In this document: in pieces, positions 8,933 through 25,153 of the stretch
Position numbering within the stretch: the first letter of the stretch is position 1
How the letters are laid out: each line of letters opens with the position of its first letter
Assembly (NCBI GenBank): GCA_034780895.1
Contig: JAUZTB010000033.1
Location: 49,669,173 to 49,733,172 of the forward strand
Direction: 5' to 3'
DNA length: 64,000 nt
Source of the DNA: Rhynchobatus australiae
Taxonomy: Eukaryota
Program-made: the position numbers and the translations under genes
Notes under the pieces: generated by a model
What the model was told of the DNA's origin: nothing
Database searches by the model: none
The model's input: the letters and a program-made list of their open reading frames with translations, nothing else

Positions 8933-10480
8933 CTGTCTAATCGCGCAGATCTTTCAGCGAACTGTGCACAAGTGTTCCCACTTCCCTCTGTTTCACAACA
9001 TCCGTCTGGGCTCTGCAATTCACTGTTTAAGTCATGCCCTGGTTTGACTGTCCAAAATAATCACCTTACACTTATATACATTGAAATCCATTTGGCACTC
9101 CTCAGCTCATCTTCCGAACGGATCAAGATCCCTTTGCAAATCATTACAACCTTCCGCACTCTCAACATGACGTCCGAATTAAGTATGATCAGTAAATTTG
9201 CTAATCGTGCCATGTACGTTCACGTCCAAATCAGTTACATAGATAGTGACTGAGAGAGCTCCCAACACACACCGCTGGGGCACCCCACTGGCCACAGGCC
9301 TCCATTGGGAGAATCGAACTTCAATAATCACTCTCTGCTTTTTATCATCGAGCTTATTATGAATGCACCTCGGTAGCTGCCCCTGAATCCCATGTGACCT
9401 AACATTCCAGATCAGCCTGCTATGCGGAACCTTGTCAATGGTCTGACTAAAGTCCAGATCGATATCTTCCACTGCTCTACTTTCCTCTATCCCCTCGTTA
9501 CCTCTTCGAAAAAGTCCAAAACATTTGTCAGACGTGACCTTCCACGAAAAGTCCGTGCTGACTGTTCCTCATCGACCCTTGACTCTCCAATTGATGGAAG
9601 ACCTTGTCCCTCAGAATTCCCTCCTGTAACTTCCCTACAACAGAAGTCAAGCTCACTGGTCTGTGGTCCTCTGGCCTGACCTTGCTTCCTTTCTTAAACA
9701 ATGGAATAACTTTGGCCACCCTCCAATCTTTCGGAACTTTACCAGTGGCTAACGACGAAGTAAATATCTTCGCAAGGGCGTCTGCGATTTCCTTCCTGGC
9801 TTCCCAAACGGTCCGTCTGTGCACCTGGTCAGGCCCTGATGATCTGCCCACCCTAATGTGCTTGAAGGCTGCAAAGACCTCCTTCCTTGCAATGGGGATA
9901 TGATCCAAGAACTCACTACTAATTCCACTTATTTCTGTGGCATCCATGATATTCTCCTCTGGAAACACCGAGAAGAAACAGATATTAAAAAAATCTCAGA
10001 CACTCCCCGTGTCCCCATAATTAGGTGGCGCTGGTGTTCTTTCAGAGGACCTGTTATCTCCCTCGTCACCCTTGAACTGTTAATGTAACTGAAGATCCTC
10101 TTCGGATTATCTTTCTCCCTGCCTGCCAAATACATCTGATACCGTCTTTTTGATTTTCTTATTTCCCTCTTAAGCCCGGACATTAAATTCTTTTTTATCG
10201 GCGAAGGTTTCATTTGTACCCAGCTGCCGAAACGCGACGGCCGCTTCCGTCTCTTTTTCCTCAGCAGACCTTCCATATCCATCGTCAGCCAGGGTCCTTG
10301 AACTTGGTACACCTCCCCTTCATCCTGTCAGGAACATGCCGCCCTGGACCCTTGATACCCTTCAGAAAGCACCCTCCCCCCACTTGCCAACTGTTCCTTT
10401 TCTTTCAACTGGCGTCGCAAAGTCGATCCCAGCGAGGTCCCGCCTCATCTCCTCAAAGTTTGCCATTAGGAAGCGCTTAC
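8933..10480 (-). mobile_element. CR1-type LINE ORF2 (RT) remnant
   Basis: Frameshifted ORFs 9929..10312, 9528..9968 and 9179..9472 carry GPDQVH, VPKDWRVAKVIPLFKKG, YRPVSLTSVVGK-like, DFSQTIDKVPH, SGVPQ and ISKFTDHT motifs. Confidence 0.9.
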
Positions 10481-13246: not shown

Positions 13247-13346
13247 ATGGCAGCACTTCGTCTCCTCAAACCATTTCACGCGTTGGAACCGGTTTTACAG
13301 ACAGAAGCTATTTTCTATCCCATTATCGCAGCCGTTGGAATTCCAG
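13247..13346 (+). CDS. GPR139-like GPCR exon 1 (copy B)
   Basis: gccaggATG...; 100 nt encoding MAALRLLKPFHALEPVLQTEAIFYPIIAAVGIP + G, then donor gtaagt at 13347 (phase 1). The intron position matches vertebrate GPR139 (GLP|AN). Its exon 2 is not identifiable because of the gap at 14281. Confidence 0.85.
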
Positions 13347-14440: not shown

Positions 14441-14540
14441 ATGGCAGCACTTCGTCTATTCAAACCATTTCTCGCTCTGCCACCCGTTTTTCAGACAGAA
14501 GCCATTTTCTATCCCATTATCGCTGCTGTTGGAATTCCAG
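14441..14540 (+). CDS. GPR139-like GPCR exon 1 (copy C)
   Basis: 100 nt encoding MAALRLFKPFLALPPVFQTEAIFYPIIAAVGIP + G, donor gtaagt at 14541. Tandem paralog of copy B. Confidence 0.85.
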
Positions 14541-21500: not shown

Positions 21501-21639
21501 CCACGTCCTGTCTCTGATCGTGTCCATACTGTGTTCCGATCTTAAACAAAAGTAAAATATCGACTCACAGACTGCGTCACTGGCTCTAGAAAGTGAACTT
21601 GAAGGTAAATCTTTGTTTCTGATTCTTTCCCTCTCACAG

Positions 21640-22542
21640 CGAACGTGCTGGCGATTGTGATCCCGTCCAGGGGAAAGTGCGGCCTCTCCAGGTGTGTCTC
21701 TCGCTACCTCGTGGCCATGGCAGCGGCAGATGTTGGTCGTGGTCATTGATGTGATTCTCTTCCGTATTAATGGGTTATATGTGACAACACGATTCTTTAA
21801 CATTACCCAAGTGTGCTCAGTCCATACGGCCATGATTCATGCAGCCACAGACATTTCCGTGTGGTTAACACTGTCTTTCACATTTGATCGATATGTAATG
21901 ATTTGTTGTCACAAGATGAGGACTAAATATTGCACCGAGAAAACTGCAGCCAGGGTTATAGGAACAGTTATCCCTCTGTTCTGTTGCAAAAACATACCCT
22001 GGTACTTTGCATTTCATCCTTTCTTTACAGTGCAGAACGTATCTTGGGGCTGTGCTGTAAAACAGGAGATTTATACTGAACCGGAATGGGTGGCATTCAC
22101 CTGGATTCACCGCTGCTTCACCCCTCTGCTTCCAATATTCCTGATATCAATGTTCAATGCGCTGACCGTGGGAAACATTTTGGCGGTCAGTAGAGTCCGG
22201 AAGATGCTAAGAGGCAGCAAACATGAGGCGACTGACAACGATGCCGAGATGGAAAACAGAAGGAAGTCCATCATCTTACTCTTTGCTATATCCGGCAATT
22301 TCATACTACTTTGGATGACGTATTTTGTATTTTTTCTCTGGGTACAAATTGCTAAGCGCTACTATGCAACCAGTTTCAGCGACCCGATGTTTATCGCGGA
22401 TCAAACCAGCTACATGCTCCTTCTTTTGAGCTGCTGCACAAACACCTGCATATATGCAGTGACTCAGTCTAAGTTCAGACAGGAGCTGAAGAATGGGATG
22501 CTGTATCCACTAGGAATATTATTTAAACGTGGAAAGGAATGA
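21640..22542 (+). pseudogene. GPR139-like GPCR exon 2 (copy D), TM1-TM7, with one 2-nt frameshift
   Basis: Acceptor ctctcacag|cg gives ANVLAIVIPSRGKCGLSRCVSRYLVAMAAAD. The sequence then reads GATGTTGGTC where the paralog at about 53205 has GATCTGTTGGTC (CT lost at 21731/21732). It continues in ORF 21694..22542 with FTFDRY, RRKSIILLFAISGNFILLW and SCCTNTCIY. Otherwise intact, so it is either a recent pseudogene or a consensus error. Confidence 0.9.
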
Positions 22543-25071: not shown

Positions 25072-25153
25072 CGCTACGAGCAGGGTTCGAACCTGCGCAG
25101 GGAAACCCCATTGGATTTCGGATCGAACGCCTTAACCACTCGGCCATCGCAGC
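25072..25153 (-). tRNA. tRNA-Ser(CGA), degenerate/probable pseudogene
   Basis: GCTGCGATGGCCGAGTGGTTAAGGCGTTCGATCCGAAATCCAATGGGGTTTCCCTGCGCAGGTTCGAACCCTGCTCGTAGCG (82 nt, long variable arm). It has a C:C mismatch in the anticodon stem and loop TC-CGA instead of CT-CGA (U33 lost). Confidence 0.88.

What the first reader, a model, noticed from the sequence alone, without database searches (positions are those of the whole stretch)
22258..22479. Extracellular loop 3 is hypervariable between close paralogs while TM6 and TM7 change only synonymously
Seen (manual codon alignment of copy D 22258-22479 with copy H 57083-56862): the 28 codons RRKS...FFLW and the 25 codons TSYM...SKFR are identical in protein, with 8 synonymous differences. 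The 21 codons between them (22342-22404 vs 56999-56937: VQIAKRYYATSFSDPMFIADQ vs MQITQRYFYISFYDPIFISDE) differ at 10 residues with no purely synonymous codon change. Established: the top of TM6, ECL3 and the top of TM7 line the class A ligand pocket. Inference: positive selection diversifying ligand specificity. This is the best evidence here that the family is a functional, diversified sensor array.
Basis: partly seen in the sequence, partly recalled or inferred. Interest (0 to 1): 0.75.

Follow-up and report, generated by a model that had tools for sequence, protein, structure and literature searches.

The report
Ray receptor duplicates retune binding pocket
In a large, unstudied family of cell-surface receptors of rays and sharks, the loop flagged as positively selected shows no significant sign of changing faster than neutral DNA, but that loop and the predicted ligand pocket differ more between duplicate genes than between species, so the copies likely recognise different molecules.

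Summary
The counts are exact: 8 synonymous differences in 53 flank codons and 10 residue changes in 21. Positive selection on ECL3 is not supported. For D/H, ECL3 pN is 0.26, against pS 0.29 and 3'UTR divergence 0.26; ML dN/dS is 1.1-1.6, p>=0.33. Across 20 open-frame subfamily copies ECL3 dN/dS is 0.52-0.62, significantly below 1 and close to the intracellular tail (0.63-0.67). A test with 82-100% simulated power finds no class above 1 in ECL3. Weak family-wide M8 signals map to ECL2 and position 3.29 and vanish under multi-hit models. D carries a 2-nt frameshift, H begins at an N run, and the pair is the extreme of 202 comparable pairs.

A different test partly rescues the idea. In 28 cross-species versus 47 same-species sister pairs of equal overall divergence, 17 positions aligned to the GPR139 pocket differ 2.0-fold more between duplicates (p=0.0005) and ECL3 1.4-fold (p=0.006). 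Other outer-helix positions do not (1.0), and intracellular ICL3 and helix 8 differ less. Best reading: a functional birth-and-death GPCR family whose pocket is likely released after duplication and then held, with no demonstrable dN/dS above 1. Ligands and expression are unknown.

The parts
21640..22542 (+). Copy D, main coding exon (mid-TM1 to stop) of a GPR139-like class A GPCR; splice acceptor AG ends at 21639
   Evidence: Pfam 7tm_1 E=7e-12; tblastn 72% to skate P0003; acceptor read from sequence
21729..21732 (+). 2-nt frameshifting deletion in TM2 of copy D as assembled (recent, private or an assembly error)
   Evidence: 91 vs 93 nt spacing; D tip dN/dS 0.26; a D-specific contig of run X1 matches 21731-21896 with 0 differences but its 10 upstream letters do not fit the window
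22009..22086 (+). ECL2, the fastest region of the family; Cys45.50 at 22051-22053; weak candidate sites 45.51, 45.54, 45.55
   Evidence: dN/dS 0.76-1.0 in 20 copies; M2a/M8 sites; not robust
22258..22341 (+). TM6 to position 6.57, including pocket-aligned 6.48, 6.51, 6.54, 6.55; identical in D and H
   Evidence: dN/dS 0.28-0.30
22342..22404 (+).
   Evidence: (helices 236-272 and 283-309 in the P0003 model)
22405..22479 (+). TM7 (7.37 onward) to the start of helix 8; identical in D and H
   Evidence: dN/dS 0.17
22480..22539 (+).
56793..57083 (-).
57084..57183 (.). 100-N run that cuts copy H exactly at RRKS; H's TM1-TM5 cannot be read
61598..61697 (-). Likely first coding exon of copy H (ATG to GT donor)
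   Evidence: tblastn with N-termini of P0003/P0012/P0014/P0022 and donor site in sequence; the pairing with H is inferred from strand and position
14441..14540 (+). Nearest upstream same-strand first exon, likely that of copy D (a second, similar one lies at 13247-13346)
   Evidence: the pairing is inferred

Best explanation
D and H are two copies of a large elasmobranch class A GPCR family under strong purifying selection in its helices, and their ECL3 contrast reflects a less constrained outer segment (dN/dS about 0.5-0.6, not above 1) seen in an extreme pair, while across the family the predicted ligand pocket and ECL3 diverge preferentially between duplicates, which likely shifts ligand specificity. 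Mechanism: tandem duplication makes one copy redundant (inferred). Constraint on folding and G-protein coupling persists, since the inner helices change no faster between duplicates than between orthologs (shown). Constraint on pocket-lining positions is lifted for a time, and the new pocket is then held in descendant orthologs (pattern shown, cause inferred). Many copies die by frameshift or stop (shown). Whether short bursts of positive selection drive the pocket changes cannot be told from these data; no persistent dN/dS above 1 is detectable.
For: Region dN/dS in 20 open-frame subfamily copies: TM6 0.28-0.30, TM7 0.17, ECL3 0.52-0.62 (p<=6e-4 against 1), tail 0.63-0.67, ECL2 0.76-1.0. In 54 copies: ECL3 0.43-0.55, pocket 0.43-0.52, other outer-helix 0.30-0.37, inner-helix 0.12-0.14. 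ECL3 mixture test 2dL=0.0; simulated power 40 of 40 for ten sites at 2, and 82% for three sites at 2. Sister-pair test on 259 proteins: 28 cross-species against 47 same-species pairs, mean p-distance 0.156 against 0.151. Paralog/ortholog ratios: pocket 2.01, ECL3 1.41, ECL2 1.12, other outer-helix 1.02, inner-helix 0.89, ICL3 0.71, helix 8 0.60. Pair-level p=0.0005 (pocket) and 0.006 (ECL3); position permutation p=0.0004. Pocket ratio 2.0-2.7 in all seven variants, including trees built without the tested columns. Among orthologs ECL3 (0.155) is at the gene average and well below ICL3 (0.276), so it is not a free loop. The pocket set was fixed beforehand from the GPR139 structure paper via the alignment.
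Against: The ortholog pairs all lie outside D's own subfamily, which has few cross-species members, so the result is carried over to D/H. Some cross-species pairs may be hidden paralogs, and the database clusters at 90% identity. The ECL3 effect alone is weaker (p=0.12 with only this genome's 12 pairs). On tip branches of 24 recent duplicates, pocket and ECL3 dN/dS were lower (0.31-0.39), not higher, than on the rest of the tree, so no burst is visible right after the latest duplications. Pocket positions come from a 22%-identical template. In D/H the deep pocket positions of TM6/TM7 are identical and the three pocket-aligned changes are conservative. No ligand or expression data.
Confidence: 0.62

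Rival explanations
1. Persistent positive (diversifying) selection on ECL3 and the tops of TM6/TM7.
For: D/H ML point estimate 1.1-1.6. In sets that include pseudogene segments, codon 37 reached 2.0 (uncorrected p=0.02) and codon 29 (6.58) posterior 0.77. Whole-gene M8 vs M8a 2dL=4.0 (20 copies) and 5.4 (54 copies).
Against: Pairwise p>=0.33. ECL3 is significantly below 1 in every phylogenetic set, weakest in the 52 segments (p about 0.025). The whole-gene signal maps to ECL2, 3.29 and 5.36, not ECL3, and falls to 2dL 0.1 and about 0 with multi-hit codon changes and to 0-2.5 with segment trees (0 for TM6-H8). In the segment sets most top sites are intracellular tail codons.
Confidence: 0.07
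2. Plain relaxed constraint: outer loops and helix tops tolerate change, and a redundant copy merely loses binding constraint before dying, with no new specificity gained.
For: ECL3 is as fast as the non-ligand tail within the subfamily. Many subfamily copies carry stops or frameshifts. All pocket dN/dS values are below 1.
Against: General relaxation should raise inner-helix divergence between duplicates, yet its ratio is 0.89 against 2.0 for the pocket, though both are equally conserved among orthologs (0.095 and 0.093). Interleaved non-pocket helix positions show no rise. Older paralog lineages carry different but ortholog-conserved pockets.
Confidence: 0.23
3. Patchy gene conversion or chimeric assembly homogenised TM6 and TM7 between D and H and left ECL3 divergent.
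For: Mosaicism exists in the family: L014/L015 differ at 4 of 102 against 25 of 115 synonymous-only codons across a breakpoint (p=0.004 uncorrected). Three identity runs at global p 0.03-0.05. D's 3' segment is closer to L014/L015/L053 (pS 0.22-0.28) than its middle is (0.47-0.58). Four copies break at RRKS.
Against: D/H synonymous divergence is flat: flanks 0.24, ECL3 0.29, 3'UTR 0.26, so the flanks are not homogenised. PHI p=0.51 and 0.84. 0 of 209 pairs pass Bonferroni in max-chi2. D's ECL3 with adjoining bases is present in independent runs with 1 difference (records 8 and 22). Conversion cannot separate pocket from interleaved non-pocket positions.
Confidence: 0.08

Closest known systems
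Elasmobranch 'probable G-protein coupled receptor 139' multigene family (automatic NCBI/UniRef names)
   Same: D and H are members: relatives at 72% (skate) and 60-67% (sharks) carry this name. There are 1932 and 2579 database proteins at E<=0.001, and all 150 scored genome matches pass in each of two searches, from about 2100 first-look candidates (not copy numbers).
   Different: No paper on the family or its evolution came up in my searches; the names are automatic.
Human GPR139 (PDB 7VUG/9M42) and GPR142
   Same: Best solved-structure match by profile, E=5.6e-18, ahead of the prolactin-releasing peptide receptor at 3e-13; same class A fold.
   Different: 22% identity. R6.51, stated to be peculiar to GPR139/142 (PMC8807744), is R in only 10 of 259 and Y in 181. 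The family has Cys3.25 and Cys45.50 (256 of 259 each), which are absent at the aligned GPR139 positions. Foldseek ranks 7VUG 25th, behind NTSR1 and others.
Vertebrate odorant receptor repertoires (birth-and-death families)
   Same: [quoted passage not shown]
   Different: A peptide-receptor-like branch by structure search, with the coding region split by an intron in TM1; no evidence here of olfactory expression.
GPR210A/B, GPR139/142-related orphans of coelacanth, gar and fishes (PMC6504862)
   Same: Additional non-mammalian subtypes near GPR139/142 (passage).
   Different: A few genes per species; that paper has no occurrence of 'shark'; orthology to this family was not tested.

Membership tests
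Class A (rhodopsin-like) GPCR | 7tm_1 domain above the curated cut-off | tested here: met
   45.8 bits against cut-off 30.5
Class A (rhodopsin-like) GPCR | Seven-helix fold with helix 8, DRY motif, W6.48, TM3-ECL2 cysteine pair | tested here: met
   AlphaFold2 model of the skate relative P0003, pLDDT 87.9; Foldseek TM about 0.7 to class A structures; W6.48 in 52 of 54; Cys pair 256 of 259 each
GPR139/GPR142 orthologs | Arg at 6.51 | tested here: not met
   Tyr in D and H; R in 10 of 259; feature from PMC8807744
GPR139/GPR142 orthologs | Acidic pocket wall D2.61/E3.29/E3.32 and no Cys at 3.25 | tested here: not met
   2.61, 3.29 and 3.32 vary widely and their commonest residues are not acidic; Cys3.25 present
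GPR139/GPR142 orthologs | Orthology by tree or synteny with true GPR139 | not tested
   No true GPR139 sequence was included in the trees
Positively selected ligand-binding region (dN/dS>1) | ECL3 region or sites with dN/dS significantly above 1 | tested here: not met
Positively selected ligand-binding region (dN/dS>1) | Any sites above 1 in the gene, robust to multi-hit changes and recombination | tested here: inconclusive
   ECL2/3.29 signal 2dL 4-5 (M8 vs M8a) and 11.6 (M2a vs M1a, 54 copies) under single-hit models; gone under multi-hit or segment trees
Birth-and-death receptor repertoire with specificity-determining pocket | Large clustered family with pseudogenes | tested here: met
Birth-and-death receptor repertoire with specificity-determining pocket | Pocket conserved between orthologs, variable among paralogs | tested here: met
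   ratio 2.0, p=0.0005
Chemosensory receptor family | Expression in sensory neurons and activation by external ligands | not testable with these tools
   No expression or ligand data obtained

The most novel reading that the evidence does not exclude
Sharks and rays, thought to be poor in GPCRs and odorant receptors, carry an overlooked repertoire of hundreds of GPR139-like receptors whose ligand pockets are retuned after each duplication as in odorant receptors. It would be an additional vertebrate chemosensory (or environmental/immune surveillance) receptor family, with episodic adaptive change at 3.29, ECL2 and the TM6-ECL3-TM7 lid.
Probability: 0.25. Interest if true: 0.85.

Novelty: new variant of a known kind. 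Interest (0 to 1): 0.45.

Why it matters
The specific claim (positive selection on ECL3, shown by one pair) falls. The ortholog-versus-paralog contrast, however, gives sequence evidence that this very large, automatically mislabelled elasmobranch family is a repertoire of receptors with different pockets rather than redundant or decaying copies. That sits against the view that cartilaginous fishes are relatively poor in GPCRs (PMC8455134, passage). It also names the positions to mutate and the genes to screen (conserved ortholog groups such as those of L063, L068, L088, L099, L067, L061).

Tried and rejected
No codeml, HyPhy or GENECONV was on the script machine, so I wrote GY94 M0-M8 models. 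The M0 likelihood matched IQ-TREE (-8476.58 against -8476.63). Branch lengths were fixed from M0 with one scale factor, and posteriors are naive empirical Bayes. M7/M8a/M8 failed numerically and were rerun without the ragged tail. TM5 numbering was three residues off and was corrected. The model expectation for the flanks is inflated by pseudogenes and is not used. The AU tests of segment trees are circular and are not counted as evidence of recombination. phmmer of D alone found no solved structure. No RNA holder was listed, which says nothing about expression. A stricter read check of D's deletion is not available, so that point rests. Earlier-findings look-ups by words and by sequence were empty. 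Literature searches for the family found nothing on it; subscription papers and supplements (not opened) may cover it. Dropped rows: of 59 subfamily loci (L001-L059), 20 open-frame copies formed set A (some cut by gaps) and 52 open TM6-tail segments set B; of 59 more distant loci, 25 were missed by my motif filter (not shown to be broken) and 34 used; four unlabelled database proteins and one gappy sequence were left out of the 259; 4 of 32 and 9 of 56 sister pairs fell outside the 0.05-0.32 window.

Full report
Observation. The clustering is real (p=1.3e-5). The frame of the comparison is accidental, though. Copy H begins at a 100-N run (57084-57183), and three other copies in the genome break within 5 nt of the same codon. 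The comparison also ends just before the intracellular tail, where the copies differ again. Copy D has a 2-nt deletion in TM2. It looks recent or private: D's tip branch has the lowest dN/dS of 21 tips (0.26), and in run X1 a contig identical to D over 21731-21896 carries 10 upstream letters that do not fit the deleted form (my inference from one contig).

What the genes are. Pfam 7tm_1. Nearest database proteins are skate, ray and shark 'probable GPR139'. The genome (2.23 Gb) gives 150 of 150 scored matches in two searches, from about 2100 first-look candidates (lower bounds, not copy numbers). A family profile picks human GPR139 as best solved relative (E=5.6e-18). The hallmark R6.51 is missing (10 of 259) and a Cys3.25/Cys45.50 pair is present, so these are GPR139-like, not GPR139. 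By the alignment and the pocket residues in PMC8807744 (passages), three of the ten differences fall on pocket-aligned positions (6.58 V/M, 7.31 M/I, 7.36 Q/E), all conservative. Positions 6.48, 6.51, 6.54, 6.55, 7.39 and 7.43 are identical.

Is ECL3 positively selected? For the pair, pN in ECL3 is 0.26, pS there 0.29, flank pS 0.24 and 3'UTR divergence 0.26. ML dN/dS is 1.1-1.6, p 0.33-0.84. Several differences are two separate single steps from a common state (codon 37: TCA Ser in 17 of 52 copies, Ala in D, Tyr in H). Of 202 pairs at similar synonymous distance, pooled pN/pS is 0.29 for the flanks, 0.61 for ECL3 and 0.65 for the tail, and D/H is the only pair with zero flank and ten or more ECL3 changes. 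In 20 open-frame subfamily copies ECL3 is 0.62 (0.51-0.76) with dS tied and 0.52 with dS free; the tail is 0.63-0.67 and ECL2 0.76-1.0. In 54 copies ECL3 is 0.43-0.55, in the 24 closest 0.67, and in 52 segments that include pseudogenes 0.73-0.86. A mixture test for a class above 1 gives 2dL=0 in ECL3, while simulations on the same tree detect ten sites at 2 in 40 of 40 runs and three sites at 2 in 82%, with 7% false positives.

Elsewhere in the gene. M8 against M8a gives 2dL 4.0 (20 copies) and 5.4 (54 copies); M2a against M1a gives 5.1 and 11.6. The sites are 45.51, 45.54 and 45.55 just after the ECL2 cysteine, 3.29 and 5.36, which are plausible lid positions. Allowing double and triple changes improves the fit by about 42 and 155 log units and removes the signal. 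With segment-specific trees the signal is 2.5 at most. PMC6332903 (abstract) reports that M2a/M8 false positives are very sensitive to such changes, and also that over-parameterised models can do worse, so I call this inconclusive.

Gene conversion. It is not the cause for D/H, whose synonymous distance is flat across flanks, loop and UTR. In the family, PHI is negative and no pair passes Bonferroni, but L014/L015 looks mosaic. Fourfold-site divergence is about half as high in TM2 and lower TM3 (0.17-0.19) as in most other regions (0.28-0.53), so occasional conversion is likely.

The test that separates tolerance from specificity. If ECL3 and the pocket were simply tolerant, they would vary equally between orthologs and between duplicates. 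I aligned 54 own and 206 named database proteins (259 after trimming), built a tree and took disjoint sister pairs: 28 cross-species and 47 same-species, with equal mean divergence (0.156 and 0.151). The 17 pocket positions, fixed beforehand from the GPR139 paper, differ at 0.093 between orthologs and 0.186 between duplicates. The other regions give ECL3 0.155 against 0.219, ECL2 0.221 against 0.248, other outer-helix positions 0.176 against 0.179, inner helices 0.095 against 0.084, ICL3 0.276 against 0.196, and helix 8 0.305 against 0.183. With pairs as units, p=0.0005 for the pocket and 0.006 for ECL3; against random sets of 17 outer-helix positions, p=0.0004. The pocket ratio stays at 2.0-2.7 with or without Heterodontus pairs, with own-genome pairs only, and on trees built without the tested columns; the ECL3 ratio stays at 1.3-1.6 but is not significant with own-genome pairs alone (p=0.12). 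This is the orthologs-conserved, paralogs-variable criterion used for odorant receptors (PMC3308321, passage). Against it: no ortholog pair comes from D's subfamily, and recent-duplicate tips show lower pocket and ECL3 dN/dS (0.31-0.39) than the rest of the tree, though sister tips are selected for similarity.

Mechanism. Shown: strong constraint on the inner helices, weaker constraint on the outer face, frequent gene death, and pocket-specific excess divergence between duplicates. Inferred: duplication frees ligand-contact positions while folding and coupling stay constrained, and surviving copies fix new pockets that orthologs then keep. Unknown: whether the changes were driven by selection, what the ligands are and where the genes are expressed.

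Novelty and verdict. Faster outer surfaces in duplicated GPCRs are ordinary (own knowledge). The family itself is only automatically named; my searches (listings, plus passages of PMC12294341, PMC6504862, PMC11979771 and PMC8455134) found no study of it, and supplements were not opened. Earlier AI notes from this scan describe the same family; they are leads, not support. Observation confirmed; positive selection on ECL3 rejected; pocket diversification among duplicates supported by a different test. Interest 0.45.

Noticed in passing
window 57084-57183; L002, L006, L036; L016, L017: Assembly breaks recur at the same codons in different copies (offsets 0, 0, -5, -2 from RRKS; -558 in L016 and L017), matching depth peaks of shared sequence. 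Many copies are therefore fragments, and chimeras are possible.
   Followed up: partly
L014 and L015 (G000:C2050, C81048): Mosaic pair: pS 0.07 in TM2-TM4 but 0.35 and 0.26 downstream; recent conversion or chimeric assembly.
   Followed up: partly
window 22009-22086 and 21826-21828: ECL2 after Cys45.50 and position 3.29 are the fastest sites of the family and better candidates for episodic selection than ECL3.
   Followed up: yes
window 28766-27847 (-), first exon near 30076-30014 (-): A divergent family member (43-47% to D) with a frameshift after the EKTAA motif in TM4.
   Followed up: partly
window 8283-7648 and 6716-6591 (-): Old, decayed copy with several stops, split by about 900 nt.
   Followed up: no
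window 52219-52318 and 53115-53263 (+): First exon plus the start of the main exon of another subfamily copy, cut by the N run at 53264.
   Followed up: no
window 13247-13346 and 14441-14540 (+): Two similar first exons 1.2 kb apart with an N run between them; either a lost main exon or a duplicated exon.
   Followed up: no
window 25072-25153, 47129-47201, 50879-50951, 60054-60126: Four tRNA genes or pseudogenes (Ser-CGA, Ala-GGC, Gly-GCC, Phe-GAA) interspersed with the receptor cluster.
   Followed up: no
G000:C79:184656-186561 (L018): Two near-identical partial copies 1.15 kb apart, both with a stop; among the closest relatives of D in TM3-TM5.
   Followed up: no
window 9179-9995, 38964-39671, 53708-54412: Frames that look like LINE reverse-transcriptase/ORF1 fragments by eye (label recalled, not searched).
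   Followed up: no
set A, TM2 and lower TM3: Fourfold-site divergence is about half that of most other regions (0.17-0.19 against 0.28-0.53); possibly recurrent conversion through the most conserved DNA.
   Followed up: partly
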